A stretch of 53,196 nucleotides of DNA, from the IMG/VR virus record IMGVR_UViG_3300020045_008062, positions 1-53,196 of that record; one strand, written 5' to 3'. Of the stretch, positions 1 through 53,196 are shown one piece after another. A program made the position numbers and the translations under genes. The notes below the pieces were generated by a model that was not told the DNA's origin, made no database searches, and worked only from the letters and a program-made list of their open reading frames with translations. Positions within the stretch are counted from its first letter, which is position 1; each line of letters opens with the position of its first letter. Source of the stretch: a virus. Its lineage: Duplodnaviria > Caudoviricetes.

Positions 1-17
1 CCGTTACCAGTAATATT
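1..17 (+). repeat. Partial attC-like site (R' end only; window starts here)
   Basis: CC-GTTACCAGTAATATT; reverse complement matches AATACTACTGGTAAC at 265-279 (14/15). Confidence 0.8.
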
Positions 18-249
18 ACACCTGACAATGTGCATATTTACCATCTTTTAAATTTGAACACATTGTTGAAGATAATTCCCAAATTCTTTCTAAAGCGTAA
101 AAGTCTTTGTGTGTAATCCCATTATTATTGTTGTACTCCATCATTTCGTAGTACTTTTTTTCAACTTCTTTTTGAAATTCAAATACTCTTTCATTTTTTG
201 TGCCTTCTAATTGGAAGAACTCTACTGCAATTTGTTTTAGTGTTGCCAT
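16..249 (-). CDS. Cassette 1 hypothetical protein (77 aa)
   Basis: ORF fills the space between GTTA (3) and TAAC (279). Confidence 0.75.
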   Translation of the reverse strand: MATLKQIAVEFFQLEGTKNERVFEFQKEVEKKYYEMMEYNNNNGITHKDFYALERIWELSSTMCSNLKDGKYAHCQV

Positions 250-272
250 TACGTTTTTGTTTAAAATACTAC

Positions 273-403
273 TGGTAACATATGCTACACAATAGCTGGG
301 TTAATTGTTTAATTTAAAGTCTGTTTTGCACTTGAATAATTTGTCTTAAATCGATGTATGGTTTTGTGCTTAACCAGCCATCGTGTAGCATCAGCCGTTA
401 GTA
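273..403 (+). repeat. attC-like site 1
   Basis: TGGTAAC...ATGCTACACAATAGCTGG / CCAGCCATCGTGTAGCAT...GTTAGTA. Confidence 0.85.
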
Positions 404-418
404 GCAAGACTACGTTTG

Positions 419-703
419 CTACTCAAAACTACTATTGTCCACACGTTTTGAAAGTCTATCTAACTTAAACGCTTTAGTTTCATCTACTCTTGATTGTACC
501 GATGGAAACATATATTTTATTTGTTCAATCATAATTTCAACATCTGCTATTTCTCCGCACATATCAACAAATCTTTCTTCTGTTGAGTTTCTTACGAATT
601 TTCTAACGGCTAATGCTAATTCCGTAGCTTCTTCTTGAGCCATTTCTAATTGAGCTGTTTGCCCCCATTTTTCAATTGTTTTTTTGTAAATTTCGTTTGA
701 CAT
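419..703 (-). CDS. Cassette 2 MazG-like nucleotide pyrophosphohydrolase
   Basis: QEEATEL...GEIADV acidic helical motifs of the MazG-like/all-alpha NTP-PPase superfamily. Confidence 0.75.
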   Translation of the reverse strand: MSNEIYKKTIEKWGQTAQLEMAQEEATELALAVRKFVRNSTEERFVDMCGEIADVEIMIEQIKYMFPSVQSRVDETKAFKLDRLSKRVDNSSFE

Positions 704-750
704 TTTATTTAGTTTTTATAATTAATATTCGTTTTAATGAGCCGTCCAGC

Positions 751-829
751 TACTAACACTCGCTACAAGCTAGTAGCCGAAAGTGTGTTGGCGCATAGGC
801 TACCATCTTGTAGCGAGATAACGTTATGT
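751..829 (+). repeat. attC-like site 2 (short type)
   Basis: TACTAAC-A-CTCGCTACAAG / CTTGTAGCGAG-ATAAC-GTTATGT, perfect 11-bp arm. Confidence 0.85.
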
Positions 830-847
830 GATATACTACTATTGTGG

Positions 848-1105
848 TTAAAATGGCAAACCATCGTCGATATATTTATTTTCACAACTATAAGGTATTT
901 TCATAATTAATGGCGGTTCTGGAGAAAATGAATTTGGTATATTAATTCCTTTTTGTTCCATTGTGTAAATCAAAATAGAAATATAATGATTCAATCCTCT
1001 ATCATCATAATCATCTTCGTATTGTTGTCTTGATATTTCTAAACATTCAGCTTCATTATAACAATCTCTTCCTAATACGCCTCCACAAGCTCTACAGTTT
1101 GCCAT
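848..1105 (-). CDS. Cassette 3 hypothetical protein, N-terminal Cys cluster
   Basis: CRAC...C...C; ORF fits cassette. Confidence 0.7.
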   Translation of the reverse strand: MANCRACGGVLGRDCYNEAECLEISRQQYEDDYDDRGLNHYISILIYTMEQKGINIPNSFSPEPPLIMKIPYSCENKYIDDGLPF

Positions 1106-1139
1106 TTCAATAATATTTAGTTGTTAATAATCGTACATC

Positions 1140-1274
1140 ACATAACACACGTTTGCAGTTATGGCTTATATCGTTTTTTCCTGCGGAAAAACCTCTGATA
1201 ATCTTAATTTGGGTTTGTGCTTGTTTATTTTAGTCCTGAATCCCGCCACATCTGCAAGCGTGGGAACGTTAGCA
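1140..1274 (+). repeat. attC-like site 3
   Basis: ACATAAC-A-CACGTTTGCAG / CTGCAAGCGTG-GGAAC-GTTAGCA. Confidence 0.85.
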
Positions 1275-1279
1275 AACAG

Positions 1280-1474
1280 CTACACAACATTGTCGTTAAG
1301 AAGCTTAATTGCTTTTTGAAGTTCAATTATTTCTAATTCAATATTTGCTAAATCATTTTGCAGAAATTCGTGGTCGCAAACCATTTCGCAGTTATCAAAA
1401 TCGGAATCTTTTTTATCCCATTCTTTACCTAATAATTCAATTCTTTTTTCAAGAACTTTAATTGCTTGTTTCAT
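1280..1474 (-). CDS. Cassette 4 small coiled-coil hypothetical protein
   Basis: 64-aa ORF fits cassette. Confidence 0.7.
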   Translation of the reverse strand: MKQAIKVLEKRIELLGKEWDKKDSDFDNCEMVCDHEFLQNDLANIELEIIELQKAIKLLNDNVV

Positions 1475-1498
1475 ATTTTATCTGAATAAAAGCCGATT

Positions 1499-1634
1499 TG
1501 CTAACAGTGGTTTTGCGAGATTTTCGGCACTTGGTTTAATTTAATTTTTAGTTTGTACTTGTTGTTTTTTTTGCTCAACTGAAAGATTACGCATCCTTAA
1601 CCGAAAATCCTCGCAAAGCCACGAACCGTTAGGG
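1499..1634 (+). repeat. attC-like site 4
   Basis: TGCTAAC-A-GTGGTTTTGCGAGATTTTCGG / CCGAAAATCCTCGCAAAGCCAC-GAACC-GTTAGGG. Confidence 0.85.
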
Positions 1635-1642
1635 ATAACCGC

Positions 1643-2044
1643 CTATTGGAGTCCAAAAACAGAATCTAAAAAGACAGTATCATTAGTGAATGAATCACAT
1701 TCTTTTGGCATTGGTTCTTGGTATTCAAAAGTTTCAGGATGTTTTTCTAAAGCACTTGATTTTTCAATTGAAAACGGATACATTATTTTATCAAATTTTG
1801 TGCATTTAAAAGCACTAACTTGTTTTGTTGAATATTGAGTTTCCCCATTTTCATAATCATAGCCAATTTCAAAATCAACATCAATATCTTCTCTTTCTAA
1901 AAACACACATCCATTAGTACACGCTCTGAAATTTAATGGATTGCAATTGCATTTTTCTTCGTGATTTGCCATTGCGTGTTTTCGCTTCAATTCCTTTTTA
2001 CAAAAATCACATTTGTAAATTGTAACATTTTCTATTGTTTTCAT
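1643..2044 (-). CDS. Cassette 5 Cys-rich, putative zinc-finger protein
   Basis: YKCDFCKK...HEEKC motif plus further Cys. Confidence 0.7.
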   Translation of the reverse strand: MKTIENVTIYKCDFCKKELKRKHAMANHEEKCNCNPLNFRACTNGCVFLEREDIDVDFEIGYDYENGETQYSTKQVSAFKCTKFDKIMYPFSIEKSSALEKHPETFEYQEPMPKECDSFTNDTVFLDSVFGLQ

Positions 2045-2073
2045 AAATTATAGATTAGTAATTCGTGGTATAT

Positions 2074-2207
2074 CCCTAACACGTGCTTGTATCAATGGCT
2101 TGCATCGTTTTTTCCTTCGGAAAAACCGCTGGCGGGATTAATCAGGATTTATCGGTTGTGCTTGGGTCTTGAATCTTAGCCACTGAGACAAGCACACAAC
2201 GTTATAA
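2074..2207 (+). repeat. attC-like site 5
   Basis: CCCTAAC-AC-GTGCTTGT / ACAAGCAC-ACAAC-GTTATAA. Confidence 0.85.
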
Positions 2208-2208
2208 C

Positions 2209-2415
2209 TCATTTTGCAGAACGTTTGCTAGTAACTAGTTCGGTTTTGTGAATTACTATATCTTCATTTTCAAAAGGAGTTTCAAAATTCCATCTATCGA
2301 GAGTAAATTTTGAAACTTTCAAAGTTTTTCCCCAAGTCGTGCAAAGTATTGTTAAATCCCCGTAATGAAAATGAAACCCACTTGCCTTAAATTCTAAATG
2401 ATATATCTTTCTCAT
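2209..2415 (-). CDS. Cassette 6 ORF3, hypothetical
   Basis: 68-aa ORF, stop 8 nt from GTTA. Confidence 0.7.
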   Translation of the reverse strand: MRKIYHLEFKASGFHFHYGDLTILCTTWGKTLKVSKFTLDRWNFETPFENEDIVIHKTELVTSKRSAK

Positions 2416-2573
2416 TACTTGTGATTTTTAATTAATTCAATTGCATTATTAATTTCTTTTAACTTTTGATTTCTTTGTGCAAAATCATCAGGATAATTTT
2501 CGGGTTTCCATCCTTTTAAACAATCTTCTAAAAGTTTCTTTTCTCTCTCAAGAATAAATATTGCTTCGTTCAT
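2415..2573 (-). CDS. Cassette 6 ORF2, hypothetical (52 aa, absent from ORF track)
   Basis: MNEAIFILEREKKLLEDCLKGWKPENYPDDFAQRNQKLKEINNAIELIKNHK; TAATG overlap with the next ORF. Confidence 0.65.
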   Translation of the reverse strand: MNEAIFILEREKKLLEDCLKGWKPENYPDDFAQRNQKLKEINNAIELIKNHK

Positions 2574-2579
2574 GGCTTA

Positions 2580-2792
2580 TTAAGTTAAGGCGATTATTTG
2601 ACCATTAATCCATTGGCTATAAGTTTTTGGGTTTCCAAATTTTTCTACATTATCCGAATTTCTTTTATGATATTCAGTATATCCTTTTTTTGAATCTTGT
2701 ATAAATTCCTCGAAAGATTTATAAGCATTTCTACAAGCTATAAATAGACATTTTAAATCATCTTGGTCGATAGTAAAATCAATATTTCCCAT
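2580..2792 (-). CDS. Cassette 6 ORF1, hypothetical
   Basis: 70-aa ORF downstream of an internal promoter. Confidence 0.7.
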   Translation of the reverse strand: MGNIDFTIDQDDLKCLFIACRNAYKSFEEFIQDSKKGYTEYHKRNSDNVEKFGNPKTYSQWINGQIIALT

Positions 2793-2841
2793 AATACAAA
2801 TTGTTTAGAAATTGCCGTGAATATCACTTCCTTATTTCTTT

Positions 2842-2891
2842 TACAAATATAGTAATTAATATTTGTATAAACCTAATTAAATTACAAATAT
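2842..2891 (-). promoter_or_regulatory. Cassette-internal Bacteroidota-type promoter with operator-like repeats
   Basis: TATATTTG on minus strand (2844-2851); TACAAATAT/ATATTTGTA/TACAAATAT at 2842, 2859, 2883. Confidence 0.6.
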
Positions 2892-2927
2892 TATTAATAA
2901 AAATTGTAAATAAATAAAAAAAACGAG

Positions 2928-3058
2928 TGATAACAACGGTTTGGAGCGATTGCAAGATTAGGATTTACTCGAATTATTAGAAAGAAAATTAAAAACTGTC
3001 TTGTACTTTTAAAAATAGTCTTGAATTTTTGCAACCGCACCAAGCCGATACGTTACCA
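2928..3058 (+). repeat. attC-like site 6
   Basis: TGATAAC-AA-CGGTTTGG / CCAAGCCG-ATAC-GTTACCA. Confidence 0.8.
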
Positions 3059-3064
3059 GTAATG

Positions 3065-3391
3065 CTACGAAACCTGCTCAACAACCTTTATTTTTTGTCT
3101 TTTTGTCTCCCAATCTCTCATTGCTATTATTTTAGCATCAAAATATACTCTCTGTTTATTATTACAGACCACATAAGCTATGTAATGTGTTTTTTCTGCG
3201 TAGTAATCTTTTAAAGCTATTACAGGAAAATCTTTTTCACTTCCTTCAGTGCCTTCCATCACAACTACGTGATACATATAATAATTTCTATTTCTTGACC
3301 TGAAATGAAATACTTTCAATAAATCTCCAACTAATATTTGTTTTCCAGATTGGTCAAAATATGTGTTGTTTTTTCTTTCTTCTAATGTCAT
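3065..3391 (-). CDS. Cassette 7 protein with YopX-like motif
   Basis: DQSGKQILVGDLL resembles the DxxGkeIyeGDil motif of phage YopX proteins. Confidence 0.55.
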   Translation of the reverse strand: MTLEERKNNTYFDQSGKQILVGDLLKVFHFRSRNRNYYMYHVVVMEGTEGSEKDFPVIALKDYYAEKTHYIAYVVCNNKQRVYFDAKIIAMRDWETKRQKIKVVEQVS

Positions 3392-3427
3392 TTTTTAAGT
3401 TTTAAATTTGTAAATAAAAAGCACTAC

Positions 3428-3504
3428 TGGTAACAATCACTATACTGCAGTTGCCGAATATACTAAACCGCATAGGCAACCGCAGTATAGTTTTAACGTT
3501 ATCA
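3428..3504 (+). repeat. attC-like site 7 (short type)
   Basis: TGGTAAC...ACTATACTGC / GCAGTATAGT...GTTATCA. Confidence 0.85.
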
Positions 3505-3510
3505 GGAATA

Positions 3511-3699
3511 CTACGATTTGTTTTCATAGATGATTTTTTCAATATCATTGGCGATTTTATCCATCATTTCAGATATTTTCAACTCATACCTTTGTTCCTC
3601 TTTATTTTCATTTATTGAACTCCAATCAAAATATTGATTTGCATATTCTTTTAATTTGTTTTTGTAATCTATTAGTTTTTGTTCTTGAATACTATTCAT
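3511..3699 (-). CDS. Cassette 8 hypothetical protein
   Basis: 62-aa ORF fits cassette. Confidence 0.7.
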   Translation of the reverse strand: MNSIQEQKLIDYKNKLKEYANQYFDWSSINENKEEQRYELKISEMMDKIANDIEKIIYENKS

Positions 3700-3729
3700 A
3701 ATATATTTAGTTTTAAATTGCCGTACTCC

Positions 3730-3865
3730 TGATAACAGTTGCTATAAGAGATTTTCGGCATAGTGATTAATCGTTTTAATTGTGTGTATTTGCGATGATT
3801 TGGCAAAGTGGAAAGATGGTTTTATACTCATCCGAAAATCCTCTTATAGCAACAATCCGTTATAG
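3730..3865 (+). repeat. attC-like site 8
   Basis: TGATAAC-A-GTTGCTATAAGAGATTTTCGG / CCGAAAATCCTCTTATAGCAAC-AATCC-GTTATAG; 21-bp arm with one extra C. Confidence 0.88.
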
Positions 3866-3894
3866 CTTATGGCTCGATTTCGGTTTTTAAGAAC

Positions 3895-4206
3895 TTAATC
3901 AAAAATATTAGCTACGTGACTTCTATATTCCTCTTCTTTAAAAATGAATAAATAAGTACTGTAAAATGGTAGCCAAATATGAAGTGTGCTTCCTGCTAAA
4001 TAGTTATAAATAGGATTTTTAAAATGGTCTATAGGGTAATCAAAATCATTTTCCCATTGCATAATTGAATAGAATATATGTTTAAATATTCCTAACAATC
4101 CAATCATTGCAATCATATAGGAAATTATATTTAACGGAAACCAAACCATTAAAGCTGTAAATAAGAAAATTATAGGGCTAACAATTATTTTAAATATTAT
4201 TTTCAT
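3895..4206 (-). CDS. Cassette 9 small membrane protein
   Basis: Long hydrophobic N-terminal segments. Confidence 0.7.
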   Translation of the reverse strand: MKIIFKIIVSPIIFLFTALMVWFPLNIISYMIAMIGLLGIFKHIFYSIMQWENDFDYPIDHFKNPIYNYLAGSTLHIWLPFYSTYLFIFKEEEYRSHVANIFD

Positions 4207-4238
4207 AACACGTTTAGTTTTTAAAAACCCACCACAAG

Positions 4239-4372
4239 CTATAACAGCAATTTGTGGTAATTCGGGTATTAGTTATTAATTTATTTTTGGTCTTGCATTT
4301 GTAAAATCTGTCTTGCATCGGTACTTTAGGATTTATTTACCCCAAACTACCACAAGTTGCAGGACGTTATCA
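4239..4372 (+). repeat. attC-like site 9
   Basis: CTATAAC-A-GCAATTTGTGGTA / TACCACAAGTTGC-AGGAC-GTTATCA. Confidence 0.85.
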
Positions 4373-4726
4373 GCAACCGCCCACAATCATCGTAAAGTGT
4401 TCACGACAAACATAAGCTGTTAAGTTATGGCGCATTCTATCGGGGTCGTCCGATGGAATTTCTTCTCCTAATTTATTGGTTGCATCTTTTCCGCAAACTG
4501 AACAAATCTCTCCTTCACAACTTCCAGAAATAAAATAAGGTGCAAATAATTCTAATGCTTTTGGTCTTTTGAAAGTATCAAATCCAATAGTTTTTGTTTG
4601 TGCATTTTGAGGAAAATAAGTATAATAATTTCTTTGAGGTATCCATCCATATTCGTCCATAAGTCCATTAGCTATGTCAAAATAATTTCCAAAAACCTCT
4701 TGTAATTTTTCTTTAGGTGGTAACAT
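4370..4726 (-). CDS. Cassette 10 protein with C-terminal CxxC...CxxH zinc-finger-like motif
   Basis: CSVC...CREH; stop codon lies inside the R' core. Confidence 0.7.
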   Translation of the reverse strand: MLPPKEKLQEVFGNYFDIANGLMDEYGWIPQRNYYTYFPQNAQTKTIGFDTFKRPKALELFAPYFISGSCEGEICSVCGKDATNKLGEEIPSDDPDRMRHNLTAYVCREHFTMIVGGC

Positions 4727-4761
4727 ATAAATAGTTTTAAAATTAGTATTAAGTGGTATGC

Positions 4762-4852
4762 TGATAACAAATGATAATGGCTATTTGCACAACCATTTTC
4801 CTCCGAAACAACTTCTGTAGTGGCAAACAGCCACTATCATCCACCGTTAGTG
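4762..4852 (+). repeat. attC-like site 10 (distal end of array)
   Basis: TGATAAC...TGATAATGGCT / AGCCACTATCA...GTTAGTG. Confidence 0.85.
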
Positions 4853-4855
4853 GCA

Positions 4856-4926
4856 ATATTCAAATGTACAAAACATACGTTTACAAATTACAAACAAAAG
4901 TAATTTATAGTAATTATAAATAGTGT
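4856..4926 (-). promoter_or_regulatory. Phage promoter pointing into the cassette array, with upstream palindromic box
   Basis: TACATTTG -7 element (4861-4868); 32 bp identical to 44205-44236; AATTTATAGTAATTATAAATA at 4902-4922. Confidence 0.7.
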
Positions 4927-5648
4927 TATTGAATATTTCCAAAATGACAAAATACATTTTCATAAATTCCTAATTCCTTGTTAATTGAATTACGCAAACG
5001 AATACGATCTTCTAAACTGTATTCGTTGTCAGATTTTTTTAATCTAATTGCGATTTTAGAAGCTAATTTATAAATCTGATGGTATTGTTCATTTGTGATG
5101 TGTAATTGCGGTGTTCGCCTCAAATCGGCTATAAAAGTCATATATTCCTGTCCATACTCTTTTACAATTCCTTCACGCAATAAACCATCATCATTTTGAA
5201 AGTGGTTTGATTGCGCGCTTTGTCTGTGGATGTTGTGTAAATTGAATCGGATTGTTTGATTGCCTCCACGCGCAAATACGTGACCTGCATCATACTTTTT
5301 TGCTGGATAATCACGAGCCAAACAATTCAAACCTTTATCAATTAATCTAACGATTAGATTTACTTTTACCTGAAGTTCTTTTGACCAATTTTTAGCAGCT
5401 TCTTTATCTTTTTTATGCTGAACTTTGTCAAATGGCTTAATTACTGGGCTTTCTTTTTCAACGGCTTTTTTTGTGATTCGCATTGCTTTATTCATATATA
5501 ATTGGCCTGCCTCGGTATCCATTAACCATTTTGGAAAACAACACATTTTCCCTAAACCAAACTTTCTGTTTTCTATTTTTACCATTTTGCCGCATCCTTC
5601 AAATCCGAATGCGGCATCTTGACCATTACATATTTTCTCTTTGATCAT
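4926..5648 (-). CDS. ninG: NinG/Rap-like recombination endonuclease
   Basis: VRLID...C...DAGH...IRFNLHNIHRQ...N motif of lambda NinG family. Confidence 0.75.
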   Translation of the reverse strand: MIKEKICNGQDAAFGFEGCGKMVKIENRKFGLGKMCCFPKWLMDTEAGQLYMNKAMRITKKAVEKESPVIKPFDKVQHKKDKEAAKNWSKELQVKVNLIVRLIDKGLNCLARDYPAKKYDAGHVFARGGNQTIRFNLHNIHRQSAQSNHFQNDDGLLREGIVKEYGQEYMTFIADLRRTPQLHITNEQYHQIYKLASKIAIRLKKSDNEYSLEDRIRLRNSINKELGIYENVFCHFGNIQ

Positions 5649-6661: not shown

Positions 6662-8029
6662 TTAAAATTTTGGTTTAATAATATCTTTGTTAAATTCTTT
6701 TTTGATGTGTGTGAATGACTTATTTACATTTTCGGTTAGTCGCCTATGTAATTCAATTGCTTTTTTTGTTTTTTGCTCCAAAGCTTCTATAACTCTGGTT
6801 TGTCCATCCGAAATAACCATATCAATAACAACATCATTTTTCTGTCCAAATCGCCAAAAACGTCTTATTGCTTGATAATATTGCTCATAACTCCAAGTAG
6901 GGAAAAATACAGAATGATTGCAATGCTGCCAATTCAAACCCATTGAAGTCATTTTTGCTTTAGTTATTAATCTTTCAATTTCTCCATTGGCAAAAGCTAA
7001 AAGAATTTCTTCTTTTTTATCAATGGATTGGGATCCAATTATTTCAACCGCTTTTGAATCTGAATGTTTTAAAATAGTGCTTTCGTTATTAGTATTACAC
7101 CAATAAACAGAAGTTTTCCCATCTGCTAAATTTACTGCTTTTTCACAACGTTTTTCTTCTGTCTGTTTTTGCTCGTGCCTTACTTCTGTCATTGATTTGG
7201 CAATTGGCGTAAACATTTGAATTTGGCCGCTAATATCAATAAGACTTTGATTTTCTACAATATGCCTGTTTGTAATTAATTTTGGTAAAACATATCTATC
7301 ATTTGAAAATCCTAAATCAGAAGGCATTTTTGCCATAATTGACCACTGATTAACCCACGCAAAGAAATCATTTTCAGCATGTGGCTTTAAATAGAATTTT
7401 TCGCCAATATTTCTATTTGTTGAATCTACTGAATTTTGATTGTTTTTGAAAAACTTTCCTAACATGTCCATGTAACCCATGTAACCTAAAAACTCTGATG
7501 TAGTTCCTAATTCAATAAAATCATTTGGCGAAGGAGTTGCAGTTGATCCAAAACGATATTTTATTTTCTTTACGAAAGCCGTAATTTGACTTTTAATTTT
7601 TCCATCAAAATTTTTAAGAATAGAACTTTCATCTAAAATAACACATTCAAAATCTTTCGGATCCAAATAATGTAATCTTTCATAATTACAAATTACAATT
7701 TTTTTTGTGAATTTACCATCTTTGGTAATTTCGATATCATCTGTAATATTTCGCTCTAAAGCTTCTTTTATGAATTGAAAGCCAACGGCCAAAGGAGTTA
7801 ATATTAAAACTCTTTTGTTTGTGTGTTGTATTACATTCCTGGCTATTGACAATTGAATTAATGTTTTTCCAAGTCCCGTATCTAAAAAGTTGGCAATCCT
7901 TCCTTTTTCAATTGATTTTTCAATAACATAAGATTGAAAATCAAAAGCGCAATCAGGGATAAAATTTGCCTTGAATCCAAAATTACCTATTGAATGGCGT
8001 TTTGATTCTAAAAATTGGTTATAATCCAT
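6662..8029 (-). CDS. SF2/SNF2-related helicase
   Basis: DTGLGKT, LDESS, TATP, GLNWQ, QAIRRFWRFGQ motifs. Confidence 0.88.
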   Translation of the reverse strand: MDYNQFLESKRHSIGNFGFKANFIPDCAFDFQSYVIEKSIEKGRIANFLDTGLGKTLIQLSIARNVIQHTNKRVLILTPLAVGFQFIKEALERNITDDIEITKDGKFTKKIVICNYERLHYLDPKDFECVILDESSILKNFDGKIKSQITAFVKKIKYRFGSTATPSPNDFIELGTTSEFLGYMGYMDMLGKFFKNNQNSVDSTNRNIGEKFYLKPHAENDFFAWVNQWSIMAKMPSDLGFSNDRYVLPKLITNRHIVENQSLIDISGQIQMFTPIAKSMTEVRHEQKQTEEKRCEKAVNLADGKTSVYWCNTNNESTILKHSDSKAVEIIGSQSIDKKEEILLAFANGEIERLITKAKMTSMGLNWQHCNHSVFFPTWSYEQYYQAIRRFWRFGQKNDVVIDMVISDGQTRVIEALEQKTKKAIELHRRLTENVNKSFTHIKKEFNKDIIKPKF

Positions 8030-51954: not shown

Positions 51955-52085
51955 TTTCTTTTTTATATTTTATTAACTGATTTTCCCAATATTTTAAAAG
52001 GCTTTCTGCAACTCTTTTTACTGCTGCTTTCTTTGGATTATATCCTAATTCAATTACTCTTTTTGTATGGAAGTCAATCCTTTCA

Positions 52086-52295
52086 TCAATTTCTGATTTT
52101 GTTGCCATTTATTTTGGGTTTTAGATGATTATCTAATATATTGTTAATTGCTCCTTTTGAATAATTAAAATGTTTTTTTATTTCGCTAACAGTATTATTT
52201 TTATTTGTTTTCCAGAATTCAATAATTTTTATTCTATCCAATTCATTTATTAAGGATCGGTAGGAGTGATCTTTTGAAACTTTTTTATTTGCCAT
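52086..52295 (-). CDS. Small HTH-like protein
   Basis: TVSEIKKHFNYSKGAINNIL helix-turn-helix pattern. Confidence 0.55.
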   Translation of the reverse strand: MANKKVSKDHSYRSLINELDRIKIIEFWKTNKNNTVSEIKKHFNYSKGAINNILDNHLKPKINGNKIRN

Positions 52296-52339
52296 AATCT
52301 ACAGTTTTATTGCTACTAATGGAGATTGTATTTTGCTTA

Positions 52340-53140
52340 TTATATTGCGAATTGTAAGGTTTGTAACTTTTTACTTGATGTATGGGTGTATATTTCGGTT
52401 GTTTTTCGGGAACTATGCCCTAATAAATCGCCTATCAATTTTAGATCAGTTCCTTTCTCGTATAATCCTGTTGCTGCACTATGTCGCAAAGTATGCATGT
52501 GATATTGCTTACCGAGATATTTTTTTACGATTTGGTTACAGCTTCCGGATGAATATTGAAATCCAAACTGGCCATTGAAAAGGTATTCTTTAGGCAAATA
52601 TTCGACATAATAGAGCCTGATTATTTCTCTTGTTGTTGGTGTAAGCGGTACTATTCTATCTTTTTTACCTTTGGCCGCACGAATATTTATCTGCATCATC
52701 GGGCTGTTTATATCTGACAATTTTAAATTTAAAACTTCTGAAACTCTCAATCCAACGGATGAAGTCAATGCAATTATTGCTTTGTGTTTTTTATTTTCGA
52801 TTTTATCTATCATCGAAACTAAATCAGTTACATCTATTACCAGCGGGATTTTCTTTTCTTTTTTGGCATACTGGATGTATTCAAATTTTCGGTTTTGCTT
52901 AATGGTTAATACATAAAATTTCTTTATTGCCGAATGCATTGCGTTTTGAGAATTTACTTCTTTGGCGTTTAGCAGATAGTTCTTGATTTCGTCAGCCGAT
53001 ATGTGTTTTGGGCTGTCTTTTTCTTTGAAGTAATTCAAGAATAGTTTTATTTGGCTACTATAGTTTTTTATTGTCTCTTTTGAGAAGTGAATGAAGTTCA
53101 AATCTCGCTCATAGTTTTGGATGTAGTTTGCGGAATTCAT
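52340..53140 (-). CDS. Tyrosine recombinase, integron-integrase-like
   Basis: SAM-like N-terminus (SKETIKNY); GLRVSE (R), KGKKDR (K), HTLRHS.AT (HxxR), LLGH, TTEIYTH (Y); no arm-binding domain. Confidence 0.92.
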   Translation of the reverse strand: MNSANYIQNYERDLNFIHFSKETIKNYSSQIKLFLNYFKEKDSPKHISADEIKNYLLNAKEVNSQNAMHSAIKKFYVLTIKQNRKFEYIQYAKKEKKIPLVIDVTDLVSMIDKIENKKHKAIIALTSSVGLRVSEVLNLKLSDINSPMMQINIRAAKGKKDRIVPLTPTTREIIRLYYVEYLPKEYLFNGQFGFQYSSGSCNQIVKKYLGKQYHMHTLRHSAATGLYEKGTDLKLIGDLLGHSSRKTTEIYTHTSSKKLQTLQFAI

Positions 53141-53196
53141 AGGCTTAGTTGTTGTGGTTGTTGGTTTTGTGGGTGGTTGAATAAATGTAGACGTTA
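53141..53196 (+). other. Candidate attI-like primary recombination site
   Basis: Directly upstream of the integrase start; ends AC-GTTA like the attC R' cores but has no hairpin; preceded by GGTTG-rich tract. Confidence 0.55.

What the first reader, a model, noticed from the sequence alone, without database searches (positions are those of the whole stretch)
1..4858. Phage-encoded integron-like system: 10-cassette array plus IntI-like recombinase
Seen: ten 77-136 bp imperfect palindromes, each starting ...TAAC-A and ending C-GTTA, separate small ORFs whose stop codons lie 4-36 nt from a GTTA core. The only recombinase in the window (52340-53140) would sit next to the array and diverge from the attC top strand if the ends join. 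Established: intI<-attI->attC cassette geometry defines integrons, which are mostly described from bacterial chromosomes and plasmids, and rarely from Bacteroidota or phages. Inference: this phage carries its own gene capture/shuffling device for accessory genes.
Basis: partly seen in the sequence, partly recalled or inferred. Interest (0 to 1): 0.96.

Follow-up and report, generated by a model that had tools for sequence, protein, structure and literature searches.

The report
Phage gene-cassette array with Xer-like integrase
A Flavobacterium-type phage carries ten small gene cassettes separated by attC-like DNA hairpins, apparently next to a compact Xer-like recombinase, so it looks like an integron built with a different enzyme and shared by many flavobacterial phages.

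Summary
Ten TAAC...GTTA imperfect hairpins (71-130 nt) separate 12 small minus-strand ORFs at 1-4849. The 10 nt outside each core pair across the ORF (81 of 100 positions), not within a site (29 of 100). This is the footprint of circular cassettes inserted at a G|TTA crossover.

- **Contiguous relatives:** in 9 viral contigs and one MAG contig with integrases 85-94% identical, a conserved 59-nt site beginning TAAC lies just upstream of the integrase ATG. A different cassette precedes it in each contig sequence.
- **Isolates:** near-identical Polaribacter phage Freya isolates differ by whole cassettes, with junctions inside AAC.
- **Association:** in 56 loci with integrase homologues, hairpins number 137 upstream and 8 downstream.
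- **The enzyme is not an IntI.** It scores as Xer-like and lacks the IntI insertion.
- **Orientation:** the ORFs are inverted relative to classical cassettes.
- **Arrays without an enzyme:** four of five other array-bearing phages have no tyrosine recombinase.
- **Window caveat:** the window is a linear contig that ends at the core, so its own integrase-array junction is inferred.
- **Prior art:** a two-site "CALIN" in Polaribacter phage P12002L (PMC9892861).

No recombination assay exists for this enzyme.

The parts
52340..53140 (-). Xer-like tyrosine recombinase, 266 aa, candidate cassette integrase
   Evidence: PF00589 at 3.9e-30 plus SAM-like N-terminal domains. NCBIfam XerA 164.5 bits (cut-off 220) and integron integrase TIGR02249 124.3 bits (cut-off 265) in two stretches. 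Best solved relatives are archaeal XerA-type proteins, and there is a 42- versus 90-residue gap against VchIntIA 2a3v. It is the only PF00589 hit in the record.
53141..53196 (-). attI-like site. On the gene-sense strand it starts with TAAC (the last four bases of the window) and runs 56 nt to the integrase ATG
   Evidence: Conserved from TAAC to ATG in 9 further contig sequences, with no conservation left of TAAC. Three other assemblies (L054, L060, L064) also begin at this TAAC.
1..15 (+). Left contig end: cc-GTTA plus the 10-nt flank that opens cassette 1
   Evidence: The flank matches the reverse complement of the flank before TAAC 276 at 9 of 10 positions.
276..400 (-). attC-like hairpin 1 (125 nt)
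   Evidence: minus-strand MFE -15.07 against -11.9 for plus. 83-85% identical copies occur in FPSV phages and in L015.
754..826 (-). attC-like hairpin 2 (73 nt)
   Evidence: z = -5.34.
1143..1271 (-). attC-like hairpin 3 (129 nt)
   Evidence: Its central part resembles that of hairpin 5.
1502..1631 (-). attC-like hairpin 4 (130 nt)
2077..2204 (-). attC-like hairpin 5 (128 nt)
   Evidence: An identical 128-nt piece sits on a wastewater contig (record 12).
2931..3055 (-). attC-like hairpin 6 (125 nt)
3431..3501 (-). attC-like hairpin 7 (71 nt)
   Evidence: z = -5.52.
3733..3862 (-). attC-like hairpin 8 (130 nt)
   Evidence: z = -5.16.
4242..4369 (-). attC-like hairpin 9 (128 nt)
   Evidence: This is the weakest fold (z = -1.38).
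4765..4849 (-). attC-like hairpin 10 (85 nt), the distal end of the array
   Evidence: Its outer flank has no partner in the window (last row). A near-identical flank opens a methyltransferase cassette in phage mumin6-1.
16..249 (-). Cassette 1 ORF, 77 aa, no family
419..703 (-). Cassette 2 ORF, 94 aa, MazG-like nucleoside triphosphate pyrophosphohydrolase
   Evidence: phrog_2245 at 7.3e-26. 75% DNA match to the Cellulophaga phage phi10:1 gene.
848..1105 (-). Cassette 3 ORF, 85 aa, no family
1280..1474 (-). Cassette 4 ORF, 64 aa, no family
1643..2044 (-). Cassette 5 ORF, 133 aa, Cys-rich, no family
2209..2792 (-). Cassette 6: three ORFs (2209-2415, 2415-2573, 2580-2792) followed by an AT-rich palindromic stretch at 2800-2930
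   Evidence: phrog_20997 for the 70-aa ORF. Inverted repeats I1 and I2.
3065..3391 (-). Cassette 7 ORF, 108 aa, no family
3511..3699 (-). Cassette 8 ORF, 62 aa, no family
3895..4206 (-). Cassette 9 ORF, 103 aa, hydrophobic, no family
4370..4726 (-). Cassette 10 ORF, 118 aa, no family
4926..5648 (-). NinG/Rap-like gene, the first backbone gene beyond the array (context, not a cassette)
   Evidence: PF05766 at 6.6e-18.

Best explanation
This is an integron-like gene-capture platform carried by a tailed phage of Flavobacteriia.

The unit. Read on the gene-sense (window minus) strand, each cassette is C-hairpin-GTTA-N10-5'UTR-ORF(s)-N10'-TAA. In a circularised cassette the two 10-nt flanks would pair. 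They would extend the TAAC/GTTA helix into a 14-bp R box that carries one conserved G.T wobble.

The site. Next to the R box come a one-sided 4-nt bulge and a 15-20-bp L stem with mismatches. This layout resembles a folded attC bottom strand.

The reaction. The adjacent 266-aa Xer-like tyrosine recombinase is proposed to cut at TAA|C on the folded gene-sense strand. It would exchange that strand with the hairpin-less attI-like site lying 52-56 nt upstream of its own start codon (insertion), or with another hairpin (excision of a circle).

The result. Cassettes pile up upstream of the integrase and co-directional with it, at the 3' end of a phage early operon. Relative to attC polarity the ORFs are therefore inverted compared with classical integrons.

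Shown by sequence: the site architecture, the cassette footprint, breakpoints confined to the 3-4-nt core, the conserved attI-like boundary, cassette turnover among near-identical isolates, and the integrase-array association.

Inferred: that this integrase is the catalyst, that the substrate is folded single-stranded DNA, which strand is used, and that the window's two ends are adjacent.
For: 1. Cassette footprint. In the window, cross-ORF flanks match at 81 of 100 positions and own-site flanks at 29 of 100; 0 of 100,000 random assignments reach 81. In 41 further loci, 84 cassettes average 8.06 of 11 and 57 of them reach 8 or more. Own-site flanks average 4.06 and 2 of 126 reach 8 or more. 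Random pairs average 3.97 and 113 of 5000 reach 8 or more.

2. Core-limited breakpoints. Freya_1 versus Freya_10 differ by a 4.9-kb, 12-ORF indel. Freya_9 versus Freya_10 differ by one 305-bp cassette, and Freya_6 carries other cassettes. Every junction lies inside AAC, next to the integrase-proximal site. In vB_FspS phages, 7 of 7 pairs with the same hairpin but a different neighbour lose identity 0-1 nt after GTTA, following identical runs of 6-2394 nt.

3. attI-like site. In 9 viral-contig loci (L008/L009 identical here) plus MAG contig L027, the integrase is 85-94% identical at protein level, and the 59 nt from TAAC to the integrase ATG are conserved. Every distinct sequence is different to the left of TAAC. 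In 8 of the 9 relatives examined by eye (7 viral contigs and L027), the cassette next to that site pairs with the last hairpin's flank.

4. Association. In 56 IMG/VR loci with homologues 45-92% identical, sense-oriented hairpins number 137 in 174,679 nt upstream and 8 in 250,854 nt downstream. 44 of the 48 loci with at least 300 nt upstream have at least one. The same layout occurs in phages Ingeline, Leef and Freya, whose integrases are 32-38% identical.

5. Assembly breaks. The window and 3 other contigs break exactly at this TAAC.

6. Linkage. For similar hairpins in different loci, the TAAC-side flank is shared and the GTTA-side flank differs in 7 pairs; the reverse holds in 1 pair. That places the crossover at plus-strand G|TTA.

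7. Structure. In 46 long sites, 15 of 21 pairs show compensatory changes and 90.5% of cells are paired, against 63.9% in shuffles (0 of 500) and 35-49% when slid. G.T outnumbers A.C by 41 to 13 on the gene-sense strand. The minus strand folds better in 8 of 10 window sites.

8. Experiment in print. One hairpin of Polaribacter phage P12002L, a phage with sites of this type by my reading, recombined with attI1 under IntI1 as bottom strand only (PMC9892861, passages).
Against: - No assay shows that this enzyme recombines these sites.
- It lacks the IntI-specific insertion. A passage of PMC8138268 calls that insertion essential for integron function.
- Arrays with the same precise breakpoints exist in phages with no tyrosine recombinase: 4 of 5 records searched had none. 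In those phages the enzyme must act in trans or be something else.
- In the window itself the integrase and the array sit on opposite ends of a linear contig. In one wastewater contig a copy of cassette 1 is preceded by other sequence rather than by the integrase region (table 7).
- Hairpin-flank linkage is imperfect: 1 reversed pair, 3 both-different pairs and 7 ambiguous pairs among 45.
- The same flank pair plus a 58-nt 5' UTR occurs with three unrelated ORFs and three different hairpins. A simple cassette model does not explain this.
- The G.T bias fits RNA folding equally well, because the favoured strand is also the mRNA strand.
- My site sets were selected for arm complementarity, which inflates the percentage paired. 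It does not inflate the flank, breakpoint or strand-bias tests.
Confidence: 0.72

Rival explanations
1. Recombination linkers without a dedicated enzyme, as with the PeSL cassettes of T4-type phages. The conserved intergenic hairpin-plus-UTR modules would be regulatory elements (terminator, processing site, translation start). Homologous or structure-directed recombination would occur between them, for example cruciform cutting by the NinG/Rap-type nuclease encoded next to the array. The integrase would be irrelevant to shuffling.
For: - Arrays and cassette indels occur in phages with no tyrosine recombinase.
- Intergenic modules are far more abundant than ORF bodies in four wastewater runs from four studies. 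Contigs keep both flanks while skipping the ORFs 419-703, 1280-1474, 1643-2044, 3511-3699 and 3895-4206.
- Identical frames hold unrelated ORFs.
- PeSL exchanges also create mini-circles (PMC2839356, abstract).
- A NinG gene borders the array here and is present in P12002L.
Against: - Breakpoints are confined to a 3-4-nt core and have unrelated sequence on one side. Homologous exchange would scatter them through the shared hairpin.
- Homologous exchange does not predict that otherwise free 10-nt flanks co-vary across each ORF.
- It also does not predict the hairpin-less conserved site at a fixed distance from one integrase clade, or the roughly 25-fold excess of hairpins upstream over downstream.
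Confidence: 0.13
2. The recombinase is simply the phage's lysogeny integrase and the site beside it is attP. The hairpins would be RNA elements of the early operon, and the flank pairing would close each processed mRNA into a panhandle. The array would sit beside attP as an ordinary accessory-gene region.
For: - Integrase next to a non-coding site is the usual temperate-phage layout.
- The window's two ends share CGTTA, as the two ends of an excised prophage would.
- Hairpin polarity always follows transcription, including in the two opposed arrays of L015.
- G.T wobbles lie on the mRNA strand.
- The Freya, Danklef and Leef authors regard the integrase as a sign of a possible temperate lifestyle (PMC8776804, passage).
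Against: - RNA pairing does not explain DNA breakpoints inside AAC or GTTA, or whole-cassette differences between isolates that are 100% identical elsewhere.
- No close copy of the integrase (E at most 1e-60) was found in 301 Flavobacterium genomes searched. This is a sample, not proof of absence.
- Ingeline and Leef are listed with two integrases each (PMC8776804, table passage), which leaves room for a separate lysogeny enzyme.
- A lysogeny role would not exclude cassette capture.
Confidence: 0.1
3. Selfish palindromic miniature elements (MITE- or REP-like) that have colonised intergenic spaces.
For: The elements are repeated, palindromic and intergenic, and they are shared among unrelated phages.
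Against: - An inserted element would have matching flanks on its own two sides or a direct target duplication. Here own-site flanks match at chance level and the partners lie across the ORF.
- The units gained and lost are ORF plus hairpin, not hairpins alone.
- No transposase was found: PF00589 hits once and PF00239 not at all. HUH (Y1) families were not searched.
Confidence: 0.03

Closest known systems
Integrons (IntI, attI, attC cassettes) of bacterial chromosomes and plasmids
   Same: - Imperfect palindromic sites with conserved AAC and GTT triplets, an unpaired spacer and an L stem.
- A crossover at the core, so that each cassette starts with the complement of its own inverse core.
- A hairpin-less primary site beside the recombinase where content varies most.
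- Arrays without an integrase also exist (CALIN).
- Unrelated ORFs share near-identical site modules. From my own recall, this is also seen in chromosomal integrons.
   Different: - The recombinase scores as Xer-like, fails the integron-integrase cut-off and lacks the extra segment.
- The ORFs are antisense to attC polarity, so the cassettes and the integrase are co-directional and the integrase lies at the 3' end of the array.
- The R box extends to 14 bp with a fixed G.T wobble.
- The spacer is a one-sided 4-nt bulge.
- The carrier is a tailed phage.
CALINs in virulent phages, notably the two-site CALIN of Polaribacter phage P12002L (PMC9892861)
   Same: P12002L intergenic hairpins have the TAAC-A...C-GTTA form. 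By my reading, at least two of its genes have flanks that pair across the ORF. One of its sites was recombined by IntI1 as bottom strand (passages).
   Different: That paper reports two predicted sites and no cognate enzyme, and its complete phage integrons carry canonical IntI. Here there are ten sites, a cognate Xer-like integrase clade with its own primary site, and population-level turnover. I could not see that paper's supplementary list of 17 CALINs.
PeSL mobile regulatory cassettes of T4-type phages (PMC2839356)
   Same: Stem-loop modules flank small accessory ORFs in hyperplastic regions. They account for insertions, deletions and replacements between close relatives, and mini-circles were detected (abstract).
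   Different: PeSLs are promoter-terminator units exchanged by recombination between the repeats, with no site-specific recombinase or core-limited crossover described in the abstract. Promoter function was not tested here.
Xer recombinases acting on folded single-stranded DNA
   Same: A simple tyrosine recombinase of the Xer type using a folded hairpin as substrate would be a precedent for activity without the IntI insertion.
   Different: That system integrates a whole filamentous phage at one chromosomal site using host enzymes. It does not build cassette arrays.

Membership tests
Integron (IntI/attI/attC) | Integrase of the IntI clade carrying the IntI-specific insertion in the catalytic domain | tested here: not met
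   TIGR02249 scores 124.3 bits against a cut-off of 265, split into two stretches. NF011946 scores 67.8 against 435. Against VchIntIA 2a3v, query residues 169-210 face chain residues 172-261, so about 48 residues are missing.
Integron (IntI/attI/attC) | attC-type sites: imperfect palindromes with AAC and GTT cores, an unpaired spacer and an L stem conserved in structure rather than sequence | tested here: met
   Ten sites in the window. In 46 related sites, 15 of 21 pairs are compensatory and 90.5% of cells are paired, against 63.9% in shuffles. Caveat: the sites were selected for paired arms. The published attC covariance models could not be run, and Rfam gave no match.
Integron (IntI/attI/attC) | Cassette boundary at the core: the start of each cassette complements the inverse core of its own site | tested here: met
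   81 of 100 positions across ORFs against 29 of 100 within sites. Confirmed in 41 further loci. Breakpoints lie 0-1 nt from GTTA in 7 of 7 pairs.
Integron (IntI/attI/attC) | A primary site (attI) beside the integrase gene where cassettes enter | tested here: met
   Conserved TAAC-to-ATG block with divergent sequence upstream in 10 aligned contig sequences including the window. Freya variation is concentrated at that site. In the window itself this site is the contig end, so adjacency is inferred.
Integron (IntI/attI/attC) | Cassette ORFs in sense with the attC top strand, read from a promoter at the integrase end | tested here: not met
   All 12 ORFs lie on the strand that carries the 5' TAAC crossover side. 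The integrase is downstream of the array and co-directional with it. Promoters were not tested.
Integron (IntI/attI/attC) | Integrase-dependent excision and insertion of cassettes | not testable with these tools
   Only natural polymorphism is available.
Xer recombinases (XerC/XerD/XerA) | Simple two-domain tyrosine recombinase that reaches the family score | tested here: inconclusive
   Best NCBIfam hits are XerA (164.5 bits against 220), XerC (145.4 against 335) and XerD (134.8 against 330); all are below cut-off. Best solved relatives are archaeal XerA-type proteins. The R, K, H-x-x-R, H and Y motifs are visible in the alignments.
Xer recombinases (XerC/XerD/XerA) | Acts at a single dif-type site to resolve replicon dimers | not tested
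   No dif-like site was sought. The repeated hairpins and cassette turnover argue for a different role.
PeSL-type regulatory cassettes | An early promoter plus a terminator stem-loop in each module | not tested
   The available promoter scan covers sigma-70-type consensus only and was not run. By eye I saw no U-tract after the hairpins.
Temperate-phage integrase/attP module | Integrated copies bounded by the core in host genomes | tested here: inconclusive
   No hit at E of 1e-60 or better in 301 Flavobacterium genomes. The one close copy in the genome collection lies on a 36-kb MAG contig with a cassette upstream.

The most novel reading that the evidence does not exclude
A second lineage of integrons may exist. 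A clade of compact Xer-like recombinases without the IntI insertion would run cassette platforms in tailed phages of Flavobacteriia, with 455 relatives confirmed in one capped IMG/VR scan. Their hairpin-bounded cassettes, which include DNA methyltransferases and MazG-like enzymes, would form an accessory-gene pool shared among unrelated phage families, some of which carry arrays but no enzyme. Standard non-coding 'frames' (R-box flanks plus 5' UTR) recur around unrelated ORFs. This suggests that cassettes are manufactured in a template, which would make the long-open question of cassette genesis testable in a culturable phage-host pair (Freya and Polaribacter).
Probability: 0.55. Interest if true: 0.92.

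Novelty: new variant of a known kind. Interest (0 to 1): 0.85.

Why it matters
Integrons are defined by IntI and its special insertion, and they are thought of as bacterial devices. This system has the same cassette logic with a Xer-like enzyme that lacks the insertion, and it sits in phages of Bacteroidota.

- **Enzymology.** If the enzyme is active, hairpin-site cassette capture does not require the IntI insertion. That bears on how integrons arose from Xer-type recombinases.
- **Phage biology.** Phages would have a modular store for accessory and probably counter-defence genes. Methyltransferases and a MazG-like enzyme are cargo, and turnover is fast enough to differ among isolates from one enrichment series.
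- **Detection.** Standard integron finders key on the IntI insertion, so they would report such loci at best as scattered attC sites. For P12002L the published screen predicted two sites and called the locus a CALIN.
- **Cassette genesis.** The reuse of identical non-coding frames around unrelated ORFs offers a handle on how cassettes are made.

Tried and rejected
- **Rfam.** A scan of 1-5200 at E up to 10 gave only chance-level hits, the best at E 0.43 and far below gathering scores. Rfam gave no attC-type match, so this says little.
- **Close relatives of the phage.** Megablast of 29000-53196 against 50,697 phage records found nothing. Relatives came from IMG/VR through the integrase instead.
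- **Cassette ORF homologues.** BLASTP of the 12 cassette ORFs against 545 ORFs from 18 loci gave no hit outside the window at E below 1e-4. Cargo is therefore not shared even where hairpins and flanks are.
- **Minus-strand crossover model.** A reading with the crossover at gene-sense G|TTA (hairpin downstream of its ORF) was considered and dropped. It leaves cassette 1 without a hairpin. It also conflicts with the Freya junctions and the 7:1 flank linkage.
- **Shufflon-like inversion.** Inversion between the inverted flanks of each ORF was considered. All 12 ORFs are co-oriented, and hairpin polarity tracks ORF direction in both arrays of L015. There is no sign of inversion.
- **Expression.** No RNA holder was listed for the stretch. 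Nothing is concluded about expression.
- **Sequencing runs.** The runs held only 6-13% of the sampled words and were contigs, so rare excision products could not be sought.
- **Host genomes.** No close integrase (E at most 1e-60) was found in the 301 Flavobacterium genomes searched.
- **Not done.** Promoter scan, structure prediction, complex prediction and a covariance model of my own were not run. IntegronFinder and HattCI are not available here.
- **Literature.** Searches found no description of this integrase-array system. The library lacks most subscription journals. They may list further flavobacterial phage CALINs or comment on the Freya length differences.

Full report
**What the window is.** The window is a whole IMG/VR virus record of 53,196 bases. 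It is classed linear, with a CheckV completeness estimate of 100%. Almost all long ORFs lie on the minus strand. They include a large terminase, a portal protein, a tape-measure protein and a helicase, so this is a tailed phage. DNA matches of parts of the array are all to Flavobacterium and Cellulophaga phages: 43 records, none covering more than 4% of the 5 kb.

**The observation.** Ten sites of 71-130 nt read TAAC-A...C-GTTA on the plus strand and lie between 12 small minus-strand ORFs. A simple detector asks for TAAC and GTTA 55-160 nt apart with complementary inner arms. It finds nine sites at a strict threshold and nothing else in the 53 kb. At a loose threshold it adds the tenth site and four weak hits that lack the A/C signature. 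All ten fold as long imperfect stems.

**The cassette footprint.** The two ends of one site do not pair beyond the four-base core. Instead, the 10 nt after each GTTA match the reverse complement of the 10 nt before the next TAAC, across the ORF.
- Cross-ORF flanks match at 81 of 100 positions.
- Own-site flanks match at 29 of 100.
- All other pairings average 3.03 of 10.
- None of 100,000 random assignments reaches 81.

The only systematic mismatch is flank position 7. It is always A after GTTA and is G in the partner in 7 of 10 cases. That makes an A.C mismatch on the plus strand and a G.T wobble on the minus strand. This is the footprint expected if each unit once existed as a circle with a complete palindrome and entered the array by a crossover at the core. 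The same footprint holds in 41 other loci:
- 84 cassettes average 8.06 of 11 matches.
- 126 own-site comparisons average 4.06.
- Random pairs average 3.97.

**Which side of the hairpin recombines.** Four related Flavobacterium phages (mumin6-1, hattifnatt9-1, hemulen6-1, lillamy9-1) carry arrays of the same kind. Their cassette strings are LMNFEABCD, OPEAGBCD, HIJKFEAQBCD and RHIJSKAGBCD. They differ by whole units.
- Among pairs of similar hairpins in different loci, the TAAC-side flank was shared and the GTTA-side flank differed in 7 pairs. The reverse held in 1 pair. Both flanks were shared in 27, both differed in 3, and 7 were ambiguous. These pairs are not phylogenetically independent.
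- In 7 of 7 cases with the same hairpin and a different right neighbour, identity ends 0-1 nt after GTTA. It follows identical runs of 788, 29, 527, 2394, 8, 6 and 8 nt.

The crossover is therefore at plus-strand G|TTA, which is TAA|C at the 5' side of the hairpin on the gene-sense strand. A cassette is a hairpin followed by its ORF.

**The recombinase.** The 266-aa protein at 52340-53140 is the only tyrosine recombinase in the record, and no serine recombinase was found.
- It has the Pfam integrase and SAM-like domains.
- In NCBIfam it scores XerA 164.5, XerC 145.4, XerD 134.8 and integron integrase 124.3 bits. All are below their cut-offs, and the integron model matches in two pieces.
- Its best solved relatives are archaeal XerA-type proteins.
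- Against Vibrio IntIA (2a3v), 42 residues of the query face 90 residues of the chain between the two aligned stretches. The IntI-specific segment is absent.

A passage of PMC8138268 states that this insertion is essential for integron function. The enzyme is Xer-like and is not a member of the IntI family.

**The link between enzyme and array.** In the window the two lie at opposite contig ends. The ends share only CGTTA, and adjacency is inferred. Relatives supply the missing contiguity.
- Ten IMG/VR loci and one MAG contig encode integrases 85-94% identical.
- In the nine IMG/VR loci that contain the start codon and in the MAG contig, the 59 nt from TAAC to the ATG are conserved. The sequence to the left of TAAC differs in every distinct contig sequence (L008 and L009 are identical there).
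- Hairpins lie within 450 nt upstream in nine of these ten loci. L007 has only 172 nt upstream.
- In eight of nine relatives examined by eye, the flank before that TAAC pairs with the flank after the last hairpin, again with G against A at position 7.

I kept the 56 loci whose match starts at residue 1 and dropped 24.
- Sense-oriented hairpins number 137 in 174,679 nt upstream and 8 in 250,854 nt downstream.
- 44 of the 48 loci with at least 300 nt upstream have at least one.
- Three contigs begin exactly at the TAAC, as the window ends there. Assemblies breaking at that base fit a population that differs in what lies beyond it.

**Turnover in cultured phages.** The integrase is 32-38% identical to those of Cellulophaga phage Ingeline and Polaribacter phages Freya, Danklef and Leef. 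Ten Freya isolates range from 43,978 to 48,920 bp.
- The array stretch of Freya_10 matches the other isolates at 98.8-100% identity in blocks.
- Freya_1 lacks 4.9 kb with 12 ORFs directly upstream of the integrase.
- Freya_9 lacks one 305-bp unit, and Freya_6 carries other units.
- In each case the sequences switch inside an AAC triplet, the right-hand one being the AAC 46 nt before the integrase ATG.
- Ingeline and Leef show the same layout and a similar integrase-proximal site.

The passages I searched in the paper describing these phages do not mention hairpins, palindromes or a variable region (PMC8776804). I did not open its supplements.

**Site structure.** I aligned 46 long sites from the window and relatives in gene-sense orientation. 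They give a 5-bp TAACG/TGTTA helix, a 4-nt bulge on the 5' arm only, and an L stem with single mismatches.
- 15 of 21 pairs carry compensatory changes.
- 90.5% of cells pair, against 63.9% in shuffles (0 of 500 reach it) and 35-49% with partners slid. Because the sites were chosen for paired arms, the percentage is inflated, so the covariation matters more than the percentage.
- G.T wobbles outnumber A.C by 41 to 13 on the gene-sense strand. My detector does not bias this test.
- The minus strand has the lower folding energy in 8 of 10 window sites.

The gene-sense strand therefore looks like the folded one, and it carries the crossover at its 5' core. From my own recall, the recombining bottom strand of attC does the same. 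In classical cassettes that strand is antisense to the ORF, so here the ORFs are inverted and run towards the integrase. The same bias would arise if the hairpins act in mRNA. The two cannot be separated here.

**What does not fit neatly.**
- Arrays occur without the enzyme. mumin6-1, hattifnatt9-1, hemulen6-1 and P12002L have no PF00589 match, and FPSV-D35 has only a 401-residue open frame with an integrase domain, some 7 kb beyond the array sites found in L001.
- The flank pair of cassette 2, a 58-nt 5' UTR and a 19-nt 3' end are shared by the window, L015 and mumin6-1. The three ORFs are unrelated and the hairpins differ on both sides.
- Contigs from four wastewater runs of four studies cover the hairpins and flanks at depths up to about 1,100. 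They scarcely cover the ORF bodies, and many join the two flanks while skipping the ORF.

The non-coding frames are thus more persistent than their cargo. I cannot explain this. It resembles the shared attC types of chromosomal integrons (recalled) and may bear on how cassettes are made.

**Cargo.** Ten of the 12 window ORFs have no PHROG family. One is MazG-like and one belongs to a PHROG of unknown function. In relatives, DNA methyltransferases are frequent cassettes.

**Comparison with the literature.** PMC9892861 screened 10,705 phage genomes. It found canonical complete integrons in three temperate phages and 17 CALINs, among them two predicted sites in Polaribacter phage P12002L. One of those two recombined with attI1 under IntI1 as bottom strand (passages). 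By my reading of its intergenic regions, P12002L carries sites of the present type. That is indirect experimental support that such hairpins are recombination substrates.

I found no paper describing the Xer-like integrase clade, its primary site or the inverted geometry. The library lacks most subscription journals, and I did not open the supplements.

**Verdict.** This is an integron-like cassette system, but with a Xer-like rather than IntI-like recombinase, with inverted cassette orientation, and with the window's own junction unproven. I rate it a new variant of a known kind and of high interest. The enzyme's activity remains the decisive untested step.

Noticed in passing
window 401-416 and 701-753; L015 6579-6645 and about 6885-6903; L002 7499-7520 and 7796-7846: The same flank pair, a 58-nt 5' UTR and a 19-nt 3' end enclose three unrelated ORFs and adjoin three different hairpins. 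Non-coding frames are reused around different cargo.
   Followed up: partly
window 1-5200 against runs X1, X2, X3, X5: Wastewater contigs cover the hairpins and flanks at depths up to about 1,100 but scarcely cover the ORF bodies. Many contigs join both flanks while skipping the ORF, so the connectors are far commoner than any one cassette gene.
   Followed up: partly
window 300-375, 1165-1245, 2100-2180, 2955-3030, 3760-3835, 4265-4340 (centres of the long hairpins): The loops of the 118-130-nt sites are not random. Alignment A3 shows semi-conserved blocks shared across phages. Hairpins 3 and 5 also hold a small internal stem-loop. This could be an accessory-protein site or a regulatory element.
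   Followed up: no
window 2800-2930: Cassette 6 holds three ORFs and a 130-nt AT-rich stretch with two overlapping inverted repeats (I1 and I2). It is a candidate internal promoter or operator.
   Followed up: no
window 53193-53196; L054, L060 and L064 position 1: Four independent assemblies stop exactly at the TAAC of the integrase-proximal site. This suggests that within-population variation upstream breaks the assembly graphs.
   Followed up: partly
L015 2542-5366 and 5700-7765: Two arrays of opposite polarity face away from each other. The unit between them is bounded by a flank type that also begins the arrays of L009, L010 and L012. Hairpin polarity follows ORF direction in both arrays.
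   Followed up: partly
L025 7793-8249; L026 7856-8375: In phages Ingeline and Leef, about 460-520 non-coding bases with short direct repeats follow the integrase. This may be a separate attachment or regulatory region.
   Followed up: no
window 51955-52339: By eye, two small minus-strand ORFs of roughly 55-60 aa lie directly downstream of the integrase. They were not searched against any library and could be a regulator or directionality factor.
   Followed up: no
L002, L021-L023, L017: DNA methyltransferase genes are recurrent cassettes in related arrays, which fits anti-restriction cargo.
   Followed up: no
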